The notes under the pieces were generated by a model, which was given only the letters and a program-made list of their open reading frames with translations, searched no databases and had not been told where the DNA came from. Shown here in pieces: positions 3,207 to 60,599 of a DNA stretch of 64,000 nucleotides. Source of the DNA: Nitrospirota bacterium (GTDB taxonomy: Bacteria; Nitrospirota; UBA9217); contig CAWIYV010000009.1 in assembly GCA_963840455.1 (NCBI GenBank), positions 376,712-440,711 on the forward strand. Reading direction: 5' to 3'. Within the stretch, counting starts at the first letter, position 1, and each line of letters opens with the position of its first letter. Position numbers and translations under genes: made by a program.

Positions 3207-3467
3207 GATCCTTTTCTTCCTCCTGACCCTTATGCGTGTGGCAGAATGATAGTGCAGATGTGGCGCTGCAGGCCGCTTCGCCATTTTTTGAATGCCGGAT
3301 ATTATAGTAAGCTATGATGGTAAATTCAAGATAATTTATCAGGGTCTGCAAGAAAAATGACCTGCCTGCAGATCCGGCTGTTGCCAGGTTCAGTCAAGAA
3401 TATAATGGCTAAGTATCTGGAATTCTGGTACTATTCGGCACTTAGACCGAGTCGAAGAGAGGGGAAC

Positions 3468-6400
3468 ATGAAAACACTTTTTATTACTGCCTTCCTGATG
3501 CTCTGTTCGTCCTGTGCGGCGCTTGCGGGGGAACGACCGGCCCCAGCACCCATTGAGTGCCGGCTTGATGTCTCTCTTGATATCCCCCGGTCGCTGATCA
3601 GGGGGCGTCTGACCATTCCTGTCAGCGCGGGGAATGCGGTGACCTTCCATACCGGCCAGCTTGTGGTGGGCGGCGTTACGCTGAACGGCAAAGACATACC
3701 TGCGCCTGTCCGGGAAGGGGTCCTCGACATCAGGCCGTCCGAGGACGGCCTGATGGAGGTCCGGTATGAGGGCGTGTTCCAGGGCGGCCAGCCCCAGGGC
3801 GACAGGAACTTCGGGGTCGTATCGAGCACCATCGATGACCGCGGGATCTCGCTCACCGGGACATGGTACCCCCAGCCGTCCGGTCTCGTGCGTTGGAAGC
3901 TCACAGCCCTGCTCCCTGTCGGGTATGAGGCGGTGTCGGAGGCGGACAGGATCGTCAAGGTGAAGAAGGACGGAGGCACCGAGTTCACCTTTGATTTTCC
4001 CCACCCCGTCGACAGTCTCTCCCTGGTTGCCACGGACCGCTACGAGGTGACCCAGGACCGCTTCGGCGACCGCGAGCTCTACGCCTATTTCTTCAAGGAG
4101 GACCGGGAGCTCGCAAAGACCTACTTACAGTACGCCAAAAAGTATTTCGAACTGTACGAGAAGATGCTCACTCCCTATCCCTACAAGCGGTTCTCCATCG
4201 TCGAGAACTTCCTGCCCACCGGCTATTCCATGCCCGCCTTCACCCTCCTGGGACAGGACGTGGTGCGCCTGCCGTTCATCGTGGAGACCTCGCTGGGCCA
4301 CGAGATCCTGCACCAGTGGTTCGGGAACTCGGTGTACGGCGACCGCGAAAAGGGCAACTGGGAGGAGGGCCTGACCACCTACCTTGCGGACCACTGGTAC
4401 GAGGAACAGAAGGGCAGGGGATGGGAGTACCGCAAGCAGCTGCTCGTCAACTACGGGGCGTACGTGAACAGCTCGAACGAATTTCCCCTCAGCGAGTTCA
4501 GGAGCAGGACCGACCTTCCTTCGCGCTCCATCGGCTACGGAAAGGCGGCCATGGTCTTCCACCTGCTCCGGACCATGACGGGCGACGAGACGTTCTTCGG
4601 GGCGCTCAAGGACCTCATCGGGCAGCGGCAGTTCACTGCCGCGTCATGGGACGACATCAAGGACGTCTTCGAAAAGCGGTCCGGCAGGGACCTGTCGCCG
4701 TTCTTCCATCAGTGGCTCAAGGAGAAGGGGCTTGTCGATATCCACGTGGAGAGCTCGTCGGTCCGGAGGAAAGGGGGGAAGTTCGAGCTGACGATTATTG
4801 TTGTGCGGAAGAACAGTACCGTCGCCATCGACCTGCCCCTGACCCTGCTGTTCCTGCAGGGCGGCGAGAAGAAGATGTCGGTCACGCTGGATGCTGAGCG
4901 GAAGGAGATCATGCTCCTTGTCGACGACGAACCTGCCTACGTGGTGTTTGACCGTGATTATGATCTCCCGAGGACGCTGACGGGGGATGAGATGCCGCCG
5001 GTCGTCGCGCGGCTGCTCGGTGACGAACGGCCGATCATCGTCGTAGAGGAAGCGGGCATTCCGGTGTACCAGGCGGTCATCGTGGGTTTTGCACGGGAAC
5101 AGGCTCAGAACAACGAAAAGAAGATGGATGGAACCGGGAAGCGTCTGACCGATGCGGACCTCAAGGCGTCGTCGGTCGTCATCCTTGGTGCGGACAATCC
5201 GCTGGTCAACAAGCTGTTCGGCGCTGTTCCCGCTCCGGCCGCGGGGTTCAGCCTTGAGGTCCGGACGAACCCGTGGAACGCCGGCAAGGTCGTCGGGATC
5301 TTCAACGCCCGTTCTGCGGAGGAGGCCGCGGCAGCATTCCCGAAGATAGCGCATTACGGGAAGTACAGCAGCCTTGCCTTCGACAAGGGAAGGAACATCG
5401 ACAAGAAGATCTCCACGGCCGAGCGCGGGATCATCGTTGCCTTCCGCGAGGAGCCAGCGGTCGTTGATCTCTCGCTGATGAAGAAACTCTCCAACGTGAC
5501 GGAGGCAGCTGCTGCCAAGAAGATCGTCTACCTGGGCGAATACCACGACCGGTTCAGCCACCACAACATCGAGCTCGAGATCATCCGGGACCTGCACAAG
5601 AAGGACCCGAGGCTCGCCATTGGGATGGAGATGTTCCAGCGGCCCTTCCAGAACACGCTGGACGACTATGTCAACGGCGCCATCGACGAGCGCGAGTTCC
5701 TGAACCGGTCCGAGTATTTTGGGCGCTGGGGGTTCGATTACAACCTCTACAAGCCCATCCTTGATTTCGCGCGGCAGGAGCGCGTGCCGGTGGTCGCCCT
5801 TAATATAAGGAAGGAAATCACCGAGAAGGTATCGAAGGAGGGCATGGACGCCCTGACCGATGATGAACGGAAGGAGCTGCCGCGCGAGACAGACTTCGCT
5901 GACGAGGACTACCGGCACCGCATCCGGCAGGCCTTCGACCAGCACAAGGGGCAGAGCGAGAAGAACTTCGATTTCTTCCTCCAGGCCCAGGTGCTCTGGG
6001 ACGAGACCATGGCGGAATCCATCGACGAGTACCTCAAAAAGAACCCGGACCGCCGGATTGCGGTCATTGCCGGCGGTGGCCATCTGGCCTATGGCAACGG
6101 CATTCCGAAGCGGGCCTTCCGGCGGAACAACCTCCCGTACACCATCATCCTGAACGATGCGGAGATCGAGCGGGACATCGCGGACTTCATCATCTTCCCG
6201 CAGCCCCTCAACGGCATGACCGCGCCGAAGCTGCTTACCACCTTCAAAGAGGACAAGGGGAGGCTTGTGATCAACGATTTCGTGCAGGAAAGCCCGGCGA
6301 AGGCTGCGGGGCTCAGGTCAGGTGACGGGATCATATCCCTGGACGGCGTGCCGGTGACATCCCTGCAGGATATCAAGGAGGCCCTTTTTTACAAGGACAA

Positions 6401-9659: not shown

Positions 9660-10550
9660 ATGGACCTCCATCAGATCGAGATATTCTGCGCCATCGTCCG
9701 ACACCAGAGCTTCTCCCGCGCCGCCGAAACGCTCTTCCTCACTCAGCCGACGGTGAGCGGCCACATGAAGAACCTCGAGGCCGAGCTTGGCGTGAAGCTG
9801 CTCGACCGCTTGGGCAAGCGGGCCATCCCCACCGAAGCGGGCGATATCCTCTTCCGGCACGGCACGCGGCTGCTCGAAGAGCGTGACCGGGCAAAGCAGG
9901 AGATCGAGCAGCTCACCGGCCGGATCAGCGGCGTCCTGACCATCGGCGGGAGCACCATCCCCGGCGCCTACCTGCTGCCGCCGCTCATCGGTACGTTCAA
10001 GAAGAAGAACCCGGGCATCTCGGTCCATCTGAGCATTGACGACACTGCGAAGATCACCGAGGCCGTTCTGGCCGGCAGCATCCGCATCGGTGTCGTCGGA
10101 GCCCGGCTCTCGGACCCGCAGCTCGAGGTCCATCCTTTTGAGTCCGACGAACTGGTCATCGCGGTGCCCGCACGCCATCCCTGGGCCAGGAAACGGACGG
10201 TCGCACCGCGGGAACTGAAGGGACAGCCATTCATCCTGCGCGAGCAGGGCTCGGGCACCCGCAAGATCATGGAGGACCGCCTGGAGAAGGCGGGCGTCTC
10301 GATCGCCGACCTTGCCATCGAGGCCGTCGTCGGGAGCAGCGACGCGGTCCGGCAGGCGGTCAAGGCCGGGCTCGGCATTTCGATCCTGTCCCTCCGCGCC
10401 CTTGCCGATGACATCGAGGCGGGCCGCCTCGCCGCGGTCCGTGTCGCGGGCGTCAGGATGGAACGGCACTTCTACGTAATCCTGCTCAAGGGCAGGGCTC
10501 GCTCGCCCCTCTCCAAGGCGTTCCTCGATTTCATCCTCAAAAAGGTCTGA
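9660..10550 (+). CDS. LysR-family regulator (CysL-like / selenium-metabolism-associated type)
   Basis: N-terminal HTH SFSRAAETLFLTQPTVSGH; GGSTIPGAYLLP and REQGSGTR in the effector domain; neighbours a YedF-like gene. Confidence 0.9.
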   Translation: MDLHQIEIFCAIVRHQSFSRAAETLFLTQPTVSGHMKNLEAELGVKLLDRLGKRAIPTEAGDILFRHGTRLLEERDRAKQEIEQLTGRISGVLTIGGSTIPGAYLLPPLIGTFKKKNPGISVHLSIDDTAKITEAVLAGSIRIGVVGARLSDPQLEVHPFESDELVIAVPARHPWARKRTVAPRELKGQPFILREQGSGTRKIMEDRLEKAGVSIADLAIEAVVGSSDAVRQAVKAGLGISILSLRALADDIEAGRLAAVRVAGVRMERHFYVILLKGRARSPLSKAFLDFILKKV

Positions 10551-10701
10551 TAGCCGCTTCCGAACAGCCGTTGCCGCCCTGTTCCACTCGATCACTCTTT
10601 CCAATCCGATCTTCCTGTCCTCATCAGTATTAGCGATTTGACTCCCCCCAGATGCTCCCTTAAGATGGCCCCGGTACCAGCTCCATCTTCGGAGGTCAAG
10701 C

Positions 10702-11445
10702 ATGCAATTCGCGCGAAAACTGCTCTTCATCGCACTGTTCATATCGGTTTTTGTTCCCGTCACGACGCCCTCGGCAGAAAAGGAGTTCCGCGTCATCGCG
10801 ACCGAGGAGCTCAAGGCTATGCTGGACGGGAAGAAGGACTTCGTCCTCGTGGACACGCGCACGGCCGAAGAGTATTAGGAGGCGCACATCAAGGGAGCGA
10901 TGAGCATCCCGGAAAAGAGCTTCGAGAACCAGCTCGCCCTTCTGCCGGCGGACAAGAACGCCCTGATCGTGCTGTACTGCAACGGCGTCAAGTGCGGCAA
11001 GAGCAGGAAGTCGGCAAAGAAGGCCGAGGCAGCAGGGTACATGAACCTGGTCATCTACGCCGAGGGATTCCCTGTCTGGGAGGAAAAGGGCTTTGCCATC
11101 GTTGCCGGGCCGGAGCACGCGAAGAAGATCGAGACCGCGAAGGTGAAGACCTACCGAGCTCAAGCAGCTCCTGGATACGAAGTAGCGCGAACATCGTGAT
11201 CGTGGACGTACGGGACGAGGCGGAGTTCAGGGAAGGGCACATCCCCACGTCGATCAACATCCCCGTCGAGACCTTCGCGCTCCGCTCCGAGGTCCTACCG
11301 AAGGAGAAAGAAGATCATCGTGTACTGCAACACCGGCGGCAGGAGCTACAACGCCTACCGGAAGCTGATGAAGCTCGCTTATCCGAGCATCGCTCAGGCG
11401 ACCTTTGCTGAGTGGAAGGAAGCGGGCATGCCCGTCGAGAAGTAG
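10702..11445 (+). pseudogene. Exported tandem-rhodanese sulfurtransferase, disrupted
   Basis: GGAGG RBS and signal peptide. Two rhodanese domains (YCNGVKCGKS; YCNTGGRS) are reconstructed across an in-frame TAG at 10876-10878 and frameshifts near 11150-11185 and ~11310. Confidence 0.8.
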
Positions 11446-11463
11446 ACAGGGGAACGATCGTAG

Positions 11464-11990
11464 ATGTCCGACGAAATTTCATCGATCAGAAAGGTATATC
11501 GCGATCCCTCTTCGATCGGACCCTGGGAGAGGTGCGTTCCCGAGGGCGGCTAGGCACCGTGGTAGCCGGAAAGGCCGATGCATTTAATCGGGTCCTCACC
11601 GGCCGCACCAGCGGCCAGGGACGGGACAGGTTCCGCTTCACCCGGAAGGGGGAGTATCGCATCAAGAACTGCCGGAAAGTGGACCTTGGATGCGGCTACC
11701 GCATTGTCTGCATCCAGAAGGATCACCGTCTCGTCCTGCTGTTCATCGGCACGCACGACGACTGTTTCCGGTGGATCGAGCGTCACCGTACGGCAGAGTA
11801 TGACCTTGACGGCGTGCCCGAGGAGGCATGGACGGCCGTTATCGCCGATCGTCCGGCCGAGCGGCCGCGCCGGGAATTGGAGCACGACGAGGAGTGTCTT
11901 GCCGAGGAATATGAAGAGTCGCTCATGGACAAGATCGATGACGGGGTCCTGCGGAAAGTATTCGCCGGCATCGTCAATGGACGAACGTGA
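11464..11990 (+). CDS. Hypothetical protein with RelE/ParE-like signature (probable frameshift near 11508)
   Basis: KVDLGCGYRIVC...LVLLFIGTHDDC resembles the RelE-superfamily C-terminal strands. The ATG at 11464 is out of frame with the main ORF. Confidence 0.5.
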
Positions 11991-12044
11991 TCAAGGAACG
12001 GTAACGATGAGCGAACGAAAATTTGCTTGAAAGGAGATCAGACC

Positions 12045-12677
12045 ATGAAACATACATTCACGCTGGGGGCGAGCACCATCCCGGGAGAGTTCATCATTCC
12101 CCGGCTGCTGTCAGCCATGATCAAGCACCTGCCGGAGATCGAGCTCAAGGTGGAGATCTCGGACAGCCTGAAGGTGTTTGAGGGGGTGCGGAAAGGACAG
12201 CACGAGATCGGAATTATCGGGACGCGGTTCGATTCGCCGGAGGTCGACTTCGCGGTCATGGTCAAGGACGACCGGCTGGTGCTGATCACACCGAAGAACC
12301 ATCCGCTTGCAGCGAAACAAAACGTAGCCTTGAGCGACCTCAAAGGTCAGAGCTTCGTCACCCGGGAAAAGGGCTCGGGGACGCGGGCGGCCTATGAGAA
12401 GGCGTTCAAGGACGCGGGGCTCGCGCTAGCGGACCTGAACACGGTCGCCGAGGTCGGTACCACCGAAGGGGTCATCCAGGCTGTCGAGGGCGGCGCGGGG
12501 ATCGCCATTGTTTCGGAGCTGGCGGCGAAAGAGGCCATCGAGCTCGGGAAGATCAAGGCGTTGAACATTCCCCTGCTCAAGATGGTCCGGGATTTCTCGA
12601 TCATTACCCGGAAAGGGACAGCGCTTTCGAAAGATGCATCGGAAGTGCTTGCCGTGATCAAGGCGGTCATGAAGTAA
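12045..12677 (+). CDS. LysR effector-binding-domain-only protein (no HTH)
   Basis: AAGGAG RBS; begins directly at TLGASTIPGEFIIP; contains REKGSGTR; clearly similar to the C-terminal part of 9660-10550. Confidence 0.85.
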   Translation: MKHTFTLGASTIPGEFIIPRLLSAMIKHLPEIELKVEISDSLKVFEGVRKGQHEIGIIGTRFDSPEVDFAVMVKDDRLVLITPKNHPLAAKQNVALSDLKGQSFVTREKGSGTRAAYEKAFKDAGLALADLNTVAEVGTTEGVIQAVEGGAGIAIVSELAAKEAIELGKIKALNIPLLKMVRDFSIITRKGTALSKDASEVLAVIKAVMK

Positions 12678-12727
12678 CGTAGATACAGTTTGCTGAAGGA
12701 GCAGTGCTGTCAACGAGGAGACGTTAT

Positions 12728-12822
12728 GACTGGCTGTGTCGGCTGGCGCCGGCTGCAGGCTTCAATCCTGTAGGACTGCCGTGAAGGGCATGTCATCGGT
12801 TCGATTCCGAAGTCAGTCTCCA
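12728..12822 (+). tRNA. Atypical tRNA(UCA): tRNA-Sec-like body, 8/4 fold, U73
   Basis: Acceptor GACTGGCT/AGTCAGTC (8 bp); D stem GTCGGC/GCCGGC (6 bp) with TGGC loop; anticodon stem TGCAGG/CCTGTA with loop CTTCAAT; long variable arm; T stem TCGG/CCGA (4 bp) with TTCGATT loop; ends T-CCA. Confidence 0.9.
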
Positions 12823-12906
12823 AGTGAACGAACGACCAGCCAGGAATGCATTGTCGCAGAACGAACGAGCGGGGAGGCTCTTCGATCTCATCTCAAGGAG
12901 GAGTAC

Positions 12907-13425
12907 ATGGAACGGGAGCATCGTGAAGAGAAGGATCGCGAGGAGCTGAGCAGGCAGGATTTCCTGAAGGTCGCGGGGATCGCCGGCCTCGGCATGGCTG
13001 GGTTGGGCGCCATGATGAGCGCGCCCGTGTCAGCGGAAGAGGCCAAGGAGGGGAAGAAGGGGAAGTATGTCATCGTCATTACCCACGGAGGCAACAATCC
13101 GAACCGTGCGATCTGGGCGCTCCTGATGGCGGAGACGATCCAGAAGAAGGGATTGGGCGATGTGCATGTCTGGATGACCATCGAAGGAGCCGACCTGAGC
13201 AAGAAGAGCGTTCCCGAGAAGATCGTTTCTCCTATATTCTCCAAGTTCGGCAATGCCATGGAGATCATGGACCGTGTGCGGAAGAACGGGTGCAAGTTCG
13301 GCGTCTGCCCTCCCTGCGCGGAGTATTTCAGCGCCAAGGGCGATGAGAAGTTCGACTGGGTGGAGCTGCAGGGCGGCGACTGGCTGATGAAGAATATCCA
13401 GGATGCCTGGGTGGTGTGGTTCTAG
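12907..13425 (+). CDS. DsrE-family protein with Tat-like leader
   Basis: AAGGAGGAG RBS; SRQDFLK plus hydrophobic stretch; VHVWMTIEGA...VCPPC DsrE fold. Confidence 0.75.
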   Translation: MEREHREEKDREELSRQDFLKVAGIAGLGMAGLGAMMSAPVSAEEAKEGKKGKYVIVITHGGNNPNRAIWALLMAETIQKKGLGDVHVWMTIEGADLSKKSVPEKIVSPIFSKFGNAMEIMDRVRKNGCKFGVCPPCAEYFSAKGDEKFDWVELQGGDWLMKNIQDAWVVWF

Positions 13426-13507
13426 CGGTATCATTTCGCAAGGGGGCCGGTCGTGTTTGCTGCGACTGGCCCTGATCGTTTAGAAGAACGAGCAACGGAG
13501 GTCGGAC

Positions 13508-13921
13508 ATGCATGCGGAAGGACCGAGTACCGGCTGTGGAGCACATGCAAAAGGCGCCGAGATGAGAACGAGCGATGCGGGCTGGGCAAAGAGCCTGCTG
13601 CTGATCGTGGGATCGGATGTTCTGGGCAAGGAAGAGGCCATCGGAAAGGTCCTGATGAAGGGCTTCTTCGAGACGATGAAGGTCCACAAACAGGTACCGC
13701 ACACCATCTTCTTCCTGAACGCGGGAGTGAAGCTGACCACCACGAACGAAGAAACGGTACCGCTCCTCAAGGAGATTGAGGCCATGGGCGTCGAGATCTA
13801 CACCTGCGGTACCTGCCTTAAATACTACAACCTTGAGCCCTCTCTCAAGGTCGGACATCGCGGTACGACCAATCATATTGTTGAGGGACTGCAGGACTTC
13901 GGCAAGGTCGTGTGGATCTGA
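13508..13921 (+). CDS. YedF-like selenium-metabolism protein (DsrE-like domain only)
   Basis: SDVLG...IGKVLMKGFFETM...IFFLNAGVKLT...GVEIYTCGTCLKYY matches the YedF C-terminal domain. No TusA-like N-terminal domain is seen. Confidence 0.8.
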   Translation: MHAEGPSTGCGAHAKGAEMRTSDAGWAKSLLLIVGSDVLGKEEAIGKVLMKGFFETMKVHKQVPHTIFFLNAGVKLTTTNEETVPLLKEIEAMGVEIYTCGTCLKYYNLEPSLKVGHRGTTNHIVEGLQDFGKVVWI

Positions 13922-14707: not shown

Positions 14708-14736
14708 TTGACTCTTGTCCACCGTGCTTCTACAAT
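14708..14736 (+). promoter_or_regulatory. Sigma70-type promoter
   Basis: TTGACT-17 nt-TACAAT. Confidence 0.7.
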
Positions 14737-14765
14737 GTCAGAACTTTCAGCGGCACGGGCGGGAC

Positions 14766-15398
14766 ATGGAACGGGACATGACGTACGCCGATGCCGTTAC
14801 GGGCATCGAGAAATACCTTACGCGGGGCAAATTCGCCAAGGCCGATGTCTTCATCGCCCGCTACCGCGGCTTGCGGTTCATCGTAAAGGACTTCGGGAAA
14901 CGCGGTTTCTGGGAACGGAACCTCATCGGCCGCATCGTTATCGGCCGCGAGTCGCGGGCCTATAGGGCCCTTGCCGGGATCGAGGGATTGCCCGCACGCT
15001 TCAAGCGGCTCACGCCGTTCTCCCTTGCCATCGAGTATCTCGAAGGCAGGGACCTGGGCGGGGTCGAGCGGCATGAGATCGGCCCGGGGGTCATCCGCCA
15101 GTTCGAGCGGATCATTGACGATATCCATGACCGCGGCTGGGTCCACCTGGACCTCCAGCGGCGCTCCAACATCCTGCTGGTGAACGACCGGGTGTTCGTG
15201 GTCGACCTGGCCTCGGCGTTCCATCCCGGCGGCGTCCCGGTCATCGGCCGCTGGCTGGTGCGTCTCCTGGGGTTCGCCGACCGGCTGTCGCTCATCAAGA
15301 TGAAGACGATCTTCGCGTCAGAGCTTCTTTCACCCAATGATCGGAAACTGATCAAGATGCGGAACCTTCTCATGCCGACGAAATGGTCCCCTGAGTAA
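14766..15398 (+). CDS. RIO1/Kdo-like kinase-fold protein
   Basis: IVKDF, IEYLEG, H.RGWVHLDL...SNILL and VVDLA kinase motifs. Start may be 14778. Confidence 0.75.
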   Translation: MERDMTYADAVTGIEKYLTRGKFAKADVFIARYRGLRFIVKDFGKRGFWERNLIGRIVIGRESRAYRALAGIEGLPARFKRLTPFSLAIEYLEGRDLGGVERHEIGPGVIRQFERIIDDIHDRGWVHLDLQRRSNILLVNDRVFVVDLASAFHPGGVPVIGRWLVRLLGFADRLSLIKMKTIFASELLSPNDRKLIKMRNLLMPTKWSPE

Positions 15399-58704: not shown

Positions 58705-59118
58705 ATGCGAACCATGAATGCAGTGCTCGGCCTGCTGGTCGTGCTCGCGCTCTGCGGCATCCTGCGGACGACGCAGGCAGCTGCAGCGGACGACGTTACG
58801 CGGATCCCGAAGGAGGAGGCGAAGGCCCTGCTGGGTAAGCCGAACGTGGTCTTCCTCGATGCCCGGGTCGATAAGGCCTGGAAGGGGAGCAGCCGGAAGA
58901 TCCTGGGCGCGGTGCGGGTCGACTTGTTCGACCTCGAGACCCAGGCCGCGAACTACGGCAAGGATACGACATTCATCATCTACTGAACGTGAGCCAATGA
59001 AGGCACGAGCGTCCGGGTGGCGCTCAGGCTGATCGAGATGGGATACAAGAACGCCTATGCGCTGAAGGGCGGCTGGTGGGAATGGGTTGGTGCCGGCTAC
59101 CCAATGGAGTCCAAATGA
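58705..59118 (+). CDS. Exported rhodanese-like selenoprotein with U-T-U motif (predicted Sec94, Sec96)
   Basis: In-frame TGA at 58984 and 58990. Read-through gives IIY-U-T-U-ANEGTSVRVA...GYKNAYALKGGW.EW..AGYP.E. SECIS-like hairpin at 59007-59025. The final TGA overlaps the next ATG. Confidence 0.85.
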
Positions 59119-59756: not shown

Positions 59757-60599
59757 ATGAGCGATCAAGTGGAAAAGAACATCGCTGCTCCCGTCTGACC
59801 GCCTAAAGGCGGCACTGGAGGTTGCCGACTGGATATTCCCGCGAAGCTCCCGGTTGATGCGCCCGCGGACCTGGAGGAGATCAGAAAAGCCATACGGAGC
59901 AAGTACGCTGAGGTCTCCGTATCAGCAGCAGGAAAATTCTCCTATCCCACAGGCAGGGAGGGAGCAGCGGCCCTGGGGTATGACCCGGCGATCATCGGAC
60001 GTGCGCCCGCGCGAATCTTCGAATCATCGTGCGGGGTCGGCAATCCGTTCTCCCTGGGCGCTATCCGGACAGGAGAGTCGGTGCTGGATATCGGGTGCGG
60101 AGGCGGTCTTGATCTGTTCGTTGCCGCAACGTTGGTGGGCGAGAGCGGCCGTGTCTCGGGGATCGATCTGACGGAAGACATGGTCCGGCGAGCACAGGAG
60201 AACCTTACGCTCGCCGGCATGAAGAACGTTGAGGTCACGAAGGTCGATTCGGACATCATCCCCCATGCGGATCATACCTTTGATGTCGTACTCTCGAACG
60301 GCGTCATAAACCTGTCCCCGCGCAAGGAGATCGTCTTCCGGGAGATCTATCGTGTCCTGAAACCCCGAGGAAGGCTGCAATTCGCCGATGTTGTCCTGGA
60401 GAACGAACTGCCGTTGTCGCTCGCAGGCAGCGCCGAAGCGTGGTCACAATGAATCGGCGGCGCGATCCCGGTCGGGGATCAGGTGCGGCTGCTGAGAACC
60501 GCCGGTTTTGAAGATGTTGCATGGCTGGGAATGACCGACTTCCGGTCGTCACCCTACACGGTCGGTGCGTTGTTCAAGGCGAGGAAGCCAAAGAAGTAA
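59757..60599 (+). CDS. ArsM-like SAM methyltransferase, predicted selenoprotein (Sec14, Sec232)
   Basis: One frame with TGA at 59796 and 60450. KY.EVS...F.YPTGR...LGY...CGVGNPF, VLDIGCGGG.D, WSQ-U-IGGA...AGF. A hairpin starts 11 nt after each TGA. Confidence 0.82.

What the first reader, a model, noticed from the sequence alone, without database searches (positions are those of the whole stretch)
9660..13921. Candidate selenium/sulfur-sensing module built around the UCA tRNA
Seen: a co-oriented run of full LysR, exported tandem rhodanese, RelE-like ORF, HTH-less LysR paralog, tRNA(UCA), Tat-like DsrE (CPPC) and YedF-like protein (CGTC). Established: YedF and certain LysR regulators co-occur with selenium-utilisation genes, and rhodanese and DsrE folds carry persulfides. 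Inference: a regulated unit coupling Se/S availability to UGA decoding, with targets such as the selenoproteins at 58.7-60.6 kb. I do not know this gene combination as a described system.
Basis: partly seen in the sequence, partly recalled or inferred. Interest (0 to 1): 0.85.

Follow-up and report, generated by a model that had tools for sequence, protein, structure and literature searches.

The report
Regulated cysteine-for-selenocysteine tRNA operon
The UGA-reading tRNA here is a second, cysteine-type look-alike of the selenocysteine tRNA, and it sits in an operon behind a selenium-family LysR regulator and a conserved operator-like promoter, which suggests how bacteria decide when to put cysteine instead of selenocysteine into their selenoproteins.

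Summary
The gene run is real. Two corrections matter.

1. The tRNA(UCA) at 12728-12822 is not the genome's tRNA-Sec, which lies on another contig with G73. It is a selC*/tRNAReC-type tRNA-Cys: 8-bp acceptor stem, 4-bp T stem, U73 and an encoded CCA.
2. The tandem rhodanese is a pseudogene, with one TAG and three +1 frameshifts.

The new result is a conserved LTTR-type box, ATCAGTATTAGCGAT at 10623-10637. It is fused to a sigma-70 promoter just downstream of the LysR_Se gene. A related box lies 31-113 nt after the LysR stop in 19 of 19 LysR-linked selC* loci, whatever gene follows. In the simplest loci it directly precedes the tRNA.

In the organism's family, 17 of 22 selC* copies have LysR_Se upstream. 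None of 31 canonical selC loci has any module gene. One congener lacks the whole 4.3-kb module cleanly.

Most likely reading: a LysR_Se-controlled operon delivers the Cys-inserting UGA tRNA together with variable S/Se-carrier genes, an HTH-less LysR_Se paralogue and a RelE-fold protein. Selenium dependence and its direction are inferred, not shown. I found no paper that links selC* to LysR_Se.

The parts
9660..10550 (+). LysR_Se (LysR_Sec_metab) transcriptional regulator, full length with HTH
   Evidence: NF040786 at 306.4 bits (cut-off 250); Pfam HTH_1 plus LysR_substrate. Orthologues of 71-94% identity lie next to pepA in G001, G003/L058, G004, G005 and G011.
10596..10611 (+). Distal conserved block (tctttccaatccgatc), a possible second LysR half-site about 20 nt upstream of the box
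   Evidence: Seen by eye in alignments of the LysR-downstream intergenic regions. A block of the form cCTATGCttg / ttcaatgcaaac sits at a constant distance from the box. This is inference only.
10623..10637 (+). LTTR-type box ATCAGTATTAGCGAT (ATC-N9-GAT, contains T-N11-A), abutting the -35 hexamer
   Evidence: Identical in G001, G004, G005 and L058, although the flanks diverge and the next gene differs. Unique in the 4.03-Mb genome. The degenerate form gives 1 match in the window and 0 in 100 shuffles. It scores 16-19 of 19 in 19 of 19 LysR-linked loci.
10638..10666 (+). Sigma-70-like promoter: TTGACT, 17 nt, TAAGAT
   Evidence: Consensus scan gives 9 of 12 matches. The hexamers are conserved across loci in register with the box.
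10702..11445 (+). Exported tandem-rhodanese pseudogene
   Evidence: Pfam Rhodanese on the fragments. TAG at 10876-10878 where intact G001 has CAG, and three frame changes. Related contigs leave out 1 nt at 11149, 11182/11185 and 11306/11307. The gene is absent in L058.
11464..11990 (+). ORFX: RelE/YafQ-fold protein with a conserved C-terminal helix; the window copy is frameshifted near 11505
   Evidence: Family of about 175 aa, with 128 proteins at E<=1e-3 and no Pfam domain. AF2 model and Foldseek against the PDB. The orthologue recurs in 7 of 22 selC* loci.
12045..12677 (+). HTH-less LysR_Se paralogue (stand-alone effector-binding domain, 210 aa)
   Evidence: Matches NF040786 positions 90-297 at 182 bits. 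272 proteins score E<=1e-3; the best 120 listed are 50-100% identical to the query, mostly 207-223 aa (range 146-285), and none carries PF00126. The 16 aligned members all begin at MKxxFTLGASTIPGE or a near variant.
12728..12822 (+). selC*/tRNAReC-type tRNA-Cys(UCA): 8-bp acceptor stem, 6-bp D stem with 4-nt loop, 6-bp anticodon stem, long variable arm, 4-bp T stem, U73, encoded CCA
   Evidence: Over 11 sequences, 96.5% of 341 cells are paired and 7 pairs show changes on both sides; slid controls give 31-50% paired.
12907..13425 (+). Exported DsrE-family protein with CPPC; the signal is Tat-like but reads SRQDFLK, not a twin arginine
   Evidence: Pfam DsrE at 21.9 bits. ESM Atlas DsrE clusters at 0.98. 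94% identical orthologue in L058; truncated in G001.
13508..13921 (+). YedF C-terminal (DsrE-like, CGTC) domain protein, lacking the TusA-like N-domain
   Evidence: TIGR03527 at 134 bits, model positions 81-194 only. Full-length YedF (193.9 bits, positions 1-194) sits at the equivalent place in G016.

Best explanation
The 4.3-kb stretch is a cassette whose constant core has three parts: a selenium-family LysR regulator (LysR_Se), an operator-like box fused to a sigma-70 promoter immediately downstream of that gene, and a tRNA-Sec-shaped tRNA-Cys(UCA) of the selC*/tRNAReC kind.

Proposed mechanism:
1. LysR_Se binds the box (10623-10637, perhaps with the distal block) and sets transcription of one operon: pseudo-rhodanese, ORFX, HTH-less LysR, tRNA, dsrE, yedF-C.
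2. The tRNA is cut out of this transcript.
3. The genome's single CysRS charges it with cysteine. U73 and G1:C72 are consistent with that.
4. Because of its 8-bp acceptor stem, SelB carries it to UGA/SECIS sites.
5. Cysteine then replaces selenocysteine in the organism's selenoproteins.

By analogy with the archaeal LysR_Se orthologue HrsM, which shuts off cysteine isoenzymes when selenium is present, the operon would be on when selenium is scarce. The variable co-transcribed genes would handle or scavenge S/Se species. These are YedF, DsrE, rhodanese and, in relatives, an HGD-D/BcrAD-type ATP-dependent reductase pair. The HTH-less paralogue, encoded inside the operon, would feed back on the regulator, either by forming mixed oligomers or by buffering the effector.

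Shown here: tRNA type, synteny, box conservation, and presence/absence of the module.
Inferred: binding of LysR_Se to the box, co-transcription, charging, the delivery factor, the selenium signal and its direction, and the role of the paralogue.
For: tRNA identity:
- The genome holds a canonical tRNA-Sec elsewhere (C1:311722-311816, 66.5 bits, G73+CCA). The window copy scores 52.9 bits and has U73+CCA.
- Of 37 tRNA-Sec-model hits typed, 28 are G73 canonical, 7 are this U73 class and 2 are ordinary tRNAs.
- Covariation supports a functional tRNA.
- selA, selB and selD are present, with one selB and one cysS.
- Published definition of selC*: U73, GCA or UCA anticodon, tRNA-Sec-like shape, found in Nitrospirae (PMC5389517, passages).
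- A tRNAReC of D. nigrificans is delivered by SelB, not EF-Tu (PMC11415595, passage).
- The 8-bp acceptor stem is the SelB/EF-Tu discriminator (PMC7609411, passage).

Linkage:
- A covariance-model search of 64 family genomes gave 22 hits of >=86 bits in 20 genomes.
- LysR_Se lies upstream on the same strand in 17 of 22. One is not assessable because the contig ends. Four lack it.
- Controls: 0 of 31 canonical selC loci carry any module gene.
- G002 (same genus, 97% complete) lacks both the tRNA and this LysR paralogue. It shows pepA directly followed by dn1-dn2-dn3.

Operator and promoter:
- The box is identical in 5 loci of the genus whether rhodanese, yedF or ORFX follows.
- It scores 16-19 of 19 at 31-113 nt after the LysR stop in 19 of 19 LysR-linked loci. 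Only 2 of 2000 random 300-nt genome windows reach 16.
- In L106 and L096 the order is LysR_Se, box, -10, tRNA(GCA), with nothing between.
- Across the phylum, 16 of 30 GCA-type selC* loci have a box scoring >=15 at 50-72 nt before the tRNA.
- Where no LysR is adjacent, 5 of 5 genomes checked encode 2-3 LysR_Sec_metab genes elsewhere.
- Gaps between the upstream gene and the tRNA are short: 50 nt in the window and 25-35 nt after yedF in 3 loci read at sequence level (L052, L053, L059). This leaves little room for a separate promoter.

Analogy: HrsM, the LysR_Se orthologue, represses Cys-type hydrogenases when Se is available (PMC5322559, passages).
Against: - No expression data exist. No RNA run holds the stretch, so co-transcription, Se dependence and direction are untested.
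- Four of 22 copies lack LysR_Se. Two copies in G073 have their own promoter (TTGTAT, 17 nt, TATAGT). One in G060 follows a nikR-like gene. One has the box and yedF but no LysR.
- The box consensus was derived from the same loci on which it was scored. The background was measured only in this G+C-rich genome, and an A+T-rich motif will hit more often by chance in A+T-rich relatives.
- The box abuts the -35 hexamer, so activation and repression are both possible.
- The acceptor-T helix is 12 bp (8/4). In 5 of 11 sequences the outer T-stem pair is U-U. SelB use is therefore not assured.
- The UCA anticodon lacks G34, a CysRS identity element, and no cysS* is present.
- The window copy of the operon carries a dead rhodanese and a frameshifted ORFX, so part of the module is decaying.
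Confidence: 0.6

Rival explanations
1. The LysR_Se operon is a selenium/sulfur trafficking or detoxification unit (YedF, DsrE, rhodanese, HGD-D/BcrAD). The tRNA is a passenger that happens to be co-located. It could be a duplicated selC relic or an island insertion point, with no regulatory logic tying it to the regulator.
For: - YedF, LysR_Se and an HGD-D/activase pair are already known neighbours of Se genes without any tRNA (PMC5322559, Table 1 passage).
- Among 70 LysR_Se loci of other lineages, only 1 has a tRNA-Sec-like gene within 6 kb.
- Gene content around the tRNA is highly variable and partly decayed.
Against: - The tRNA is the most constant cargo.
- In L106 and L096 the box and promoter are followed by the tRNA alone.
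- In 16 of 30 phylum loci the box travels with the tRNA even when neither LysR nor yedF is adjacent.
- Compensatory changes show the tRNA is under selection.
- No integrase was found among the ORFs I read next to the tRNA.
Confidence: 0.15
2. The tRNA is a general opal suppressor delivered by EF-Tu. Its 8/4 arrangement gives 12 bp, the same length as canonical 7/5 tRNAs. The regulator keeps it tightly off except under stress, giving conditional read-through of UGA stops genome-wide rather than SECIS-directed Sec-to-Cys replacement.
For: - The 12-bp acceptor-T helix.
- A deltaproteobacterial 8/4 tRNA-Cys(UCA) translated an opal codon in E. coli (PMC5389517, passages).
- Tight regulation would make sense for a toxic suppressor.
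Against: - The 8-bp acceptor stem is reported as the feature that excludes EF-Tu and recruits SelB (PMC7609411, passage).
- The one tRNAReC tested biochemically used SelB (PMC11415595, passage).
- GCA-anticodon relatives carry the same box. They could read UGA only in a SelB/SECIS context, as reported in PMC13582414 (passage).
Confidence: 0.12
3. It is a second true tRNA-Sec, serylated and converted by SelA, expressed under special conditions.
For: It passes Rfam's tRNA-Sec gathering score and has a UCA anticodon.
Against: - All 28 canonical tRNA-Sec genes typed in relatives have G73. All 7 of this class have U73.
- U73 is the main CysRS identity element, and G73 or U73 bears on SerRS recognition (PMC5389517, passage).
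- T-stem length differs: 4 bp here against 5 bp in the canonical tRNA.
Confidence: 0.04
4. The stretch is a decaying remnant: a dying island with a toxin-like gene, no longer functional as a unit in this genome.
For: - The rhodanese has four lesions and ORFX one.
- G001 has a truncated DsrE, a frameshifted YedF-C and only a 3' remnant of the HTH-less LysR.
- G011 keeps LysR alone, without the box.
Against: In the window, LysR_Se, the box and promoter, the HTH-less LysR, the tRNA, DsrE and YedF-C are all intact. The tRNA differs from those of relatives only in loop positions.
Confidence: 0.09

Closest known systems
selC* tRNA-Cys / tRNAReC (Mukai et al. 2017 NAR, PMC5389517; Vargas-Rodriguez et al. 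2018 RNA Biol, not held here)
   Same: tRNA-Sec-like shape with an 8-bp acceptor stem, long variable arm, U73 and UCA anticodon. It coexists with a canonical selC and full selABD. It occurs in Nitrospirae-type anaerobes.
   Different: The gene contexts described in the main text are selB* and cysS* downstream, in Deltaproteobacteria. This genome has neither: one selB and one full-length cysS. Instead the tRNA lies behind LysR_Se and a box with S/Se-carrier genes. The main text of that paper does not contain the words LysR, yedF, DsrE or rhodanese. Its supplementary locus figures could not be seen.
LysR_Se / HrsM (Lin et al. 2015 GBE, PMC5322559; NCBIfam NF040786)
   Same: The regulator passes the family cut-off. 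The family is tied to Sec-decoding genomes. HrsM switches Cys isoenzymes according to selenium supply.
   Different: Known or proposed targets are protein genes (selA/B/D neighbours, the frc and vhc operons). Here the conserved target is a tRNA gene, with a defined box. There is also an HTH-less paralogue family, which that paper's passages do not mention.
YedF (TIGR03527) and its usual neighbours (HGD-D / BcrAD-type activase)
   Same: The CGxC DsrE-like domain. Full-length YedF lies directly upstream of the tRNA in many relatives. An HGD-D plus BcrAD pair lies in the module of G017 and G010, as in the STRING table of PMC5322559.
   Different: The window's copy is the C-terminal domain alone, placed after the tRNA.
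RelE/YafQ/ParE toxins
   Same: The fold of the N-terminal ~115 residues of ORFX.
   Different: No Pfam membership and no adjacent antitoxin gene. There is an extra conserved C-terminal helix. The genomic association is with the selenium module rather than with mobile elements.

Membership tests
selC* tRNA-Cys / tRNAReC | tRNA-Sec-like cloverleaf (8-bp acceptor stem, long variable arm, extended D and anticodon stems) | tested here: met
   Read from the sequence. 31 pairs, 96.5% of cells paired, 7 pairs with changes on both sides. Rfam tRNA-Sec at 52.9 bits.
selC* tRNA-Cys / tRNAReC | U73 discriminator, where tRNA-Sec has G73 | tested here: met
   U73+CCA in the window and in 6 relatives. G73+CCA in 28 canonical tRNA-Sec genes.
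selC* tRNA-Cys / tRNAReC | Anticodon UCA or GCA | tested here: met
   UCA.
selC* tRNA-Cys / tRNAReC | Coexists with canonical selC and with selA, selB and selD | tested here: met
selC* tRNA-Cys / tRNAReC | Charged with Cys by CysRS; delivered by SelB; inserts Cys at UGA | not testable with these tools
   Needs biochemistry. The genome has one cysS and one selB.
LysR_Sec_metab (NF040786), gene 9660-10550 | Whole-protein score over the curated cut-off; HTH plus effector domain | tested here: met
   306.4 bits against 250, model positions 1-296 of 298.
LysR_Sec_metab (NF040786), gene 12045-12677 | Whole-protein score over the curated cut-off; HTH plus effector domain | tested here: not met
   182.1 bits against 250, only model positions 90-297, no PF00126. 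It is a paralogous stand-alone effector domain, not a member as the family is defined.
YedF (TIGR03527) | Score over the cut-off; C-terminal CGxC motif | tested here: met
   134.1 bits against 110; CGTC present.
YedF (TIGR03527) | N-terminal TusA/SirA-like domain with CPxP | tested here: not met
   The match covers model positions 81-194 only. The full-length form with CPLP is seen in G016, G005 and L059.
RelE/ParE superfamily (ORFX) | Pfam model over the gathering score | tested here: not met
   ParE_toxin at 14.9 bits against 23.
RelE/ParE superfamily (ORFX) | RelE-type fold (strand, two helices, three-stranded sheet, helix) | tested here: met
   AF2 core pLDDT 84-96 in the well-folded blocks. 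Foldseek probability 1.00 to 4lsy, 4mmg and 2khe.
RelE/ParE superfamily (ORFX) | Adjacent cognate antitoxin gene | tested here: not met
   No small upstream or downstream partner. The neighbours are rhodanese and the HTH-less LysR.
Rhodanese (PF00581), gene 10702-11445 | Intact reading frame | tested here: not met
   One TAG and three frame changes.
DsrE (PF02635), gene 12907-13425 | Pfam gathering score | tested here: inconclusive
   21.9 bits against 22.7. ESM Atlas feature search at 0.98 to DsrE clusters.

The most novel reading that the evidence does not exclude
The cassette is a complete, self-contained switch for the meaning of UGA. Its proposed parts are:
- a selenium sensor (LysR_Se) with a dedicated operator;
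- an operon-encoded HTH-less copy of its own sensor domain that tunes or latches the response;
- the Cys-inserting tRNA-Sec mimic as the output;
- a domesticated RelE-fold A-site protein (ORFX) that acts on ribosomes waiting at UGA, for example by clearing or sparing selenoprotein mRNAs while the tRNA pool changes over.

That would make it the first known case of a transcription factor reprogramming a codon through a dedicated tRNA in response to a trace element.
Probability: 0.15. Interest if true: 0.9.

Novelty: new variant of a known kind. Interest (0 to 1): 0.72.

Why it matters
selC*/tRNAReC tRNAs have been known since 2016-2018. When and why cells use them is still open. A 2026 paper states that the partitioning between tRNA-Sec and tRNAReC 'remains unclear' (PMC13582414, passage).

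This work supplies three things: a candidate regulator, a candidate operator sequence and a promoter. It also shows that the box travels with the tRNA across a phylum, including two single-contig 1.8-1.9 Mb genomes. That turns the question into simple experiments: tRNA Northern blots with and without selenium, EMSA, and Sec/Cys proteomics.

The result also gives LysR_Se, so far a purely comparative-genomics family in bacteria, a concrete predicted target. Finally, it flags two uncharacterised protein families as parts of selenium biology: the HTH-less LysR_Se domain and the RelE-fold ORFX.

Tried and rejected
- Expression: the look-up of sequencing runs failed three times because the machine was busy. 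On the fourth try it listed 19 DNA rows and no RNA holder.
- Read laying on four wetland DNA runs gave only short contigs of related strains. These cannot show whether the window's own lesions are assembly errors. The table of base differences was truncated, so the TAG site was not resolved.
- The script machine was lost. Three things were therefore left undone: ORF annotation upstream of the 9 box-bearing GCA-type loci that had no LysR hit; a background estimate for the box in A+T-rich genomes; and a count of U73 for the 11 loci my parser missed.
- Near-matches to the box at C13:75654 and C13:76486 (4-5 mismatches) lie beside an exported protein gene and were not convincing.
- The second LysR_Sec_metab of the genome (C9:362446-363354) has no box within its locus and no obvious Se gene beside it.
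- ARAGORN alone is unreliable for this tRNA class. It missed L096 and L078, so LysR loci of other lineages were rescanned with the covariance model.
- Complex prediction (LysR_Se with the HTH-less paralogue) was not run. Two LTTR effector domains would probably pass through likeness to solved LTTR dimers, which would not distinguish hetero- from homo-oligomers.
- Papers: Vargas-Rodriguez 2018 (PMC6103700) is not held, so its content is cited only through passages of later reviews. The supplements of Mukai 2017, which may show selC* gene neighbourhoods, were not visible.
- Searches for a printed link between selC*/tRNAReC and LysR or YedF found none. In one search the term 'LysR' matched only 'LysRS'.

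Full report
**What is there**

The window is G000:C9:376712-440711, from a 4.03-Mb, 14-contig, 100%-complete genome.

- The full LysR (9660-10550) is a member of NCBIfam LysR_Sec_metab, at 306.4 bits against a cut-off of 250.
- The second LysR-like gene (12045-12677) matches only positions 90-297 of the same model (182 bits) and has no HTH.
- The last gene (13508-13921) matches YedF over model positions 81-194 only. It is the DsrE-like CGTC domain without the TusA-like domain.
- The gene at 12907-13425 is a DsrE-family protein with a signal-like N-terminus and a CPPC motif.
- The ORF at 11464/11412-11990 has no family hit. It is treated separately below.

**Two corrections to the observation**

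First, the tandem rhodanese is dead in this genome. Read in one frame, it has a TAG at 10876-10878 inside the conserved EEY-x-x-HI motif. The frame then moves three times, near 11149, 11182-11185 and 11306-11307. The orthologue in congener G001 is an intact 246-residue exported tandem rhodanese, with CAG at the TAG position. Short metagenome contigs of related strains leave out one base at 11149, at 11182 or 11185, and at 11306 or 11307. So the window carries three +1 insertions relative to its relatives. The closest relative found (L058 = G003, 94-99% protein identity) has no rhodanese at all at this place. Long ORFs elsewhere in the window are intact, so a generally error-rich assembly is unlikely. 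I could not see the assembly's own reads.

Second, the RelE-like ORF has lost one base of a C-run near 11505 relative to G001.

**The tRNA is not tRNA-Sec**

A search of the genome and 40 relatives with Rfam's tRNA-Sec model found two hits over the gathering score in G000. One is at C1:311722-311816 (66.5 bits). The other is the window's, at 52.9 bits.

- 28 are 94-95-nt genes of the canonical type (most read GGGAGAGG...CTCTCCC), followed by G and CCA.
- 7 are 90-93-nt genes of the form GACYGGCT...AGYCRGTC, followed by T and CCA. These are the window plus G001, G004, G005, G010, G016 and G017.
- 2 are ordinary Ser and Leu tRNAs.

The window tRNA has these features:
- an 8-bp acceptor stem;
- a 6-bp D stem with a 4-nt loop;
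- a 6-bp anticodon stem with loop CUUCAAU;
- a 7-bp variable arm with one bulge;
- a 4-bp T stem;
- U73 and an encoded CCA.

On 11 sequences, 96.5% of 341 cells form standard pairs. Seven pairs show changes on both sides. Sliding the partners by 1-3 columns gives 31-50% paired. The outer T-stem pair is U-U in 5 of 11 sequences.

These are the published hallmarks of selC* tRNA-Cys: U73, a GCA or UCA anticodon, a tRNA-Sec-like shape, occurrence in Nitrospirae among others, and coexistence with full selABCD (PMC5389517, passages). The genome has selD (with an in-frame TGA), selA and one selB. It has one full-length cysS. The selB* and cysS* genes described downstream of selC* in Deltaproteobacteria are absent.

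**Conserved neighbourhood**

The locus is mosaic within the genus.

| Genome | Gene order |
|---|---|
| Window (G000) | pepA, LysR, ψ-rhodanese, ORFX, HTH-less LysR, selC*, DsrE, YedF-C, dn1 |
| G001 | pepA, LysR, rhodanese, membrane ORF, ORFX, a 12-codon remnant of the HTH-less LysR, selC*, an inserted CCG/Fe-S gene, truncated DsrE, frameshifted YedF-C, dn1 |
| G004 | pepA, LysR, single-domain rhodanese, selC*, dn2 |
| G005 | pepA, LysR, full YedF, about 1.1 kb, selC*, dn1 |
| G003/L058 | pepA, LysR, ORFX, HTH-less LysR, selC*, DsrE, YedF-C |

To avoid picking loci by the regulator, I built a covariance model of the tRNA and searched all 64 genomes held for the family. It gave 22 hits of 86 bits or more in 20 genomes. 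There was also one degenerate 61-bit hit, and two 41-42-bit hits that are the canonical tRNA-Sec.

After fetching flanks, the contexts were as follows.
- A LysR_Se homologue lies upstream on the same strand within about 6 kb in 17 of 22 copies.
- One contig is too short to tell (G045).
- Four copies lack it:
  - G060:C105 has the box and yedF, but an asparaginase-like gene lies upstream.
  - G060:C58 follows a nikR-like gene.
  - The two G073 copies have their own TTGTAT, 17 nt, TATAGT promoter inside a shared ~150-nt repeat. One of them is degenerate.

Other module genes recur less regularly.
- A YedF-type gene is adjacent in 15 of 22 copies, often ending 25-35 nt before the tRNA.
- A rhodanese occurs in 8.
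- ORFX occurs in 7.
- The HTH-less LysR is intact in 4 and a remnant in 2.
- In G017 and G010 an HGD-D plus BcrAD/BadFG ATPase pair lies between the box and the tRNA.

Controls:
- None of 31 canonical selC loci (30 with ±1.5 kb, one with ±10 kb) has any module gene.
- G002 (same genus, 97% complete) has no such tRNA. It has only the other, 275-bit LysR_Sec_metab paralogue. Its locus reads pepA, 278 nt, dn1, dn2, dn3. The whole module is therefore a presence/absence unit whose limits match the finding's coordinates.
- G011 keeps pepA-LysR-dn1 without the box or the tRNA.

**The box**

I aligned the DNA after the LysR stop in six close loci. It is poorly conserved except for one block: ATCAGTATTAGCGAT, then TTGACT, then 17 nt, then TAAGAT or TACAAT. 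This block is identical in five loci of the genus, whether rhodanese, yedF or ORFX follows.

In the window it occupies 10623-10666. The promoter scan found the same hexamers independently.

The 15-mer is an ATC-N9-GAT dyad containing T-N11-A. From my own knowledge, that is the classical LysR-type box. It occurs once in the genome.

With more distant regulators (35-44% identity) the block recurs as ATCGGAATTACCTAT-TTTACA, ATAGATATTAACTAT-TTTACA or ATCAATATTAACTAT-TGGACT. Scored against the degenerate consensus ATMGRWATTANCKATTKKAC:
- 19 of 19 LysR-linked selC* loci score 16-19 of 19 at 31-113 nt after the LysR stop, each followed by a -10-like hexamer at the right spacing;
- 2 of 2000 random 300-nt windows of this genome reach 16;
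- the window has 1 match with up to 2 mismatches, against 0 in 100 shuffles.

A second, weaker block (cCTATGCttg or ttcaatgcaaac) lies about two helical turns upstream (by eye).

In L106 and L096, two Nitrospirae MAGs of another lineage, the order is LysR_Se, box, -10, then a U73 tRNA with a GCA anticodon. Nothing lies between.

A pattern search for that GCA type across 401 genomes of the phylum found it in 37, with 0 for the reversed control. I examined 30 of those loci with ±1.5 kb flanks.
- All 19 whose 3' end my script parsed have U73+CCA.
- 16 have a box scoring 15 or more at 50-72 nt before the tRNA.
- 7 have LysR_Se directly upstream, and 2 more have it nearby.

In one single-contig genome (G118) the boxed tRNA sits between unrelated genes. 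All 5 such genomes that I checked encode 2-3 LysR_Sec_metab genes elsewhere.

Among 70 LysR_Se loci of other lineages, the model found one further case. L078, an unclassified MAG, reads LysR, full yedF, then a UCA tRNA with T+CCA after the acceptor.

Caveats: the consensus was built from the loci it scores, and I have no background for A+T-rich genomes because the script machine was lost. The fixed distance to the tRNA start is the stronger argument there.

**The two uncharacterised proteins**

The HTH-less LysR is not a relic. A search returned 272 proteins at E<=0.001. The best 120 listed are 50-100% identical to the query and mostly 207-223 aa (range 146-285). None carries the HTH domain, and the named ones are from Nitrospirota. 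The 16 members I aligned all start at MKxxFTLGASTIPGE or a near variant, exactly where the effector domain of LysR_Se begins. They share the STIPG and RExGSGTR motifs with it. Orthologues of 48-65% identity also occur without a selC* nearby (L061-L064).

ORFX belongs to a family of 128 proteins of about 175 aa without a Pfam domain. It has invariant R, K, H, D and W residues in a ~115-residue core and a conserved C-terminal helix. The AF2 model has mean pLDDT 73.9, with the well-folded core blocks at 84-96. Its best PDB matches are the H. pylori HP0894 toxin, YafQ and RelE (Foldseek probability 1.00, TM to target 0.61-0.69). No antitoxin-like neighbour exists.

**How it most likely works**

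Shown here:
- the tRNA type;
- its selection as a tRNA;
- its linkage to LysR_Se;
- the conserved box and promoter;
- the cassette behaviour.

Inferred steps:
1. LysR_Se binds the box.
2. One transcript runs from about 10673 through yedF-C. Intergenic gaps are 19-85 nt, and the only + strand terminator-like site is a weak one inside 12045-12677.
3. The tRNA is processed out of that transcript.
4. It is charged by the single CysRS.
5. It is delivered by SelB. The 8-bp acceptor stem is the reported discriminator (PMC7609411, passage). The one tRNAReC tested used SelB, not EF-Tu (PMC11415595, passage).

The signal is proposed by analogy. HrsM, the archaeal LysR_Se orthologue, represses Cys-type hydrogenases when selenium is available, and selenophosphate was suggested as its effector (PMC5322559, passages). 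The same logic here would express the Cys-inserting tRNA when selenium is short.

I put these odds on the three layers:
- about 0.9 on the tRNA identity;
- about 0.7 on control by LysR_Se through the box;
- about 0.45 on 'induced by selenium shortage'.

Plausible clients are in the window. There is a rhodanese_LYCAU selenoprotein with a U-T-U motif (58705-59115; 142 bits against a cut-off of 115). There is also an ArsM-like methyltransferase with two in-frame TGA codons.

**Comparison with what is known, and novelty**

The tRNA is a member of a known class, and the regulator is a member of a known family. New as far as I could find are:
- their linkage;
- the operator-like box that follows the tRNA across a phylum;
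- the HTH-less paralogue family;
- the RelE-fold partner.

Searches of the held library found no paper joining selC*/tRNAReC with LysR or YedF. The main text of the discovery paper has none of those words. Its supplementary locus figures and the 2018 RNA Biology paper were not available to me, so prior depiction of this neighbourhood cannot be excluded.

I rate this a new variant of a known kind. Interest is 0.72, because it makes the open question of when tRNAReC is used directly testable.

Noticed in passing
window 58705-59115 (+): An exported rhodanese-related selenoprotein (NF041203 rhodanese_LYCAU, 142 bits against a cut-off of 115). It has two in-frame TGA codons two codons apart (IIY-U-T-U-ANEG) and ends at a third TGA. 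A 2026 paper reports that tRNAReC is enriched in genomes with UXXU hydrogenases (PMC13582414, passage).
   Followed up: partly
window 59757-60596 (+): An ArsM-like SAM methyltransferase with two in-frame TGA codons (PV-U-PPK and WSQ-U-IGG). It hits the NCBIfam double-selenoprotein methyltransferase models, below their exception cut-offs (273-295 bits).
   Followed up: partly
G000:C9:362446-363354 (14 kb upstream of the window; locus L002): A second full LysR_Sec_metab paralogue (273 bits). It is the one retained in relatives that lack selC*. It has no box after it, and it is followed convergently by a large ComEC-like gene.
   Followed up: partly
L169 (G073:C12) and L175 (G073:C3): Two copies of the tRNA in one genome share about 150 nt of upstream sequence, including their own TTGTAT, 17 nt, TATAGT promoter and a TTCGAATTTCGAA palindrome. 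No LysR is nearby. One copy has a damaged D arm and acceptor stem.
   Followed up: no
L177 (G060:C58) and L178 (G019:C24): A divergent subtype of the U73 UCA tRNA lies directly after a nikR-like gene, near Ni/Co transporter-like genes. The G019 copy looks degenerate (61 bits).
   Followed up: no
L078 3019-3119; L096 about 3377-3480: ARAGORN reports no tRNA at two loci where the covariance model and reading by eye show U73 tRNA-Sec-like genes. Surveys of this class that rely on ARAGORN will undercount.
   Followed up: yes
L051 3489-5570 (G017); L052 5568-7512 (G010): An HGD-D (2-hydroxyglutaryl-CoA-dehydratase-like) gene plus a BcrAD/BadFG ATPase lies between the box and the tRNA. In G010 the HGD-D gene is split into two ORFs. 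In G001, an ORF after the tRNA looks, by eye only, like a BcrAD remnant.
   Followed up: partly
G000:C13:75654 and 76486: Two near-matches to the box (5 and 4 mismatches of 21) lie within 1 kb of each other, flanking an exported 232-aa protein gene. They may be chance.
   Followed up: partly
window 14715-15395 (+) and its homologues G002:C50:4608-5273, G011:C124:961-1596: A kinase-like ORF downstream of the module. The genome search flags one in-frame stop inside the matched stretch in two relatives: TGA in G002 and TAG in G011.
   Followed up: no
L063 (a MAG labelled Chloroflexota) and L062 (labelled Pseudomonadota): Orthologues of the HTH-less LysR (59-62% identity) sit in MAGs labelled as other phyla. 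In L063 DsrE, ORFX and YedF accompany it. This could be mis-binning or transfer.
   Followed up: no
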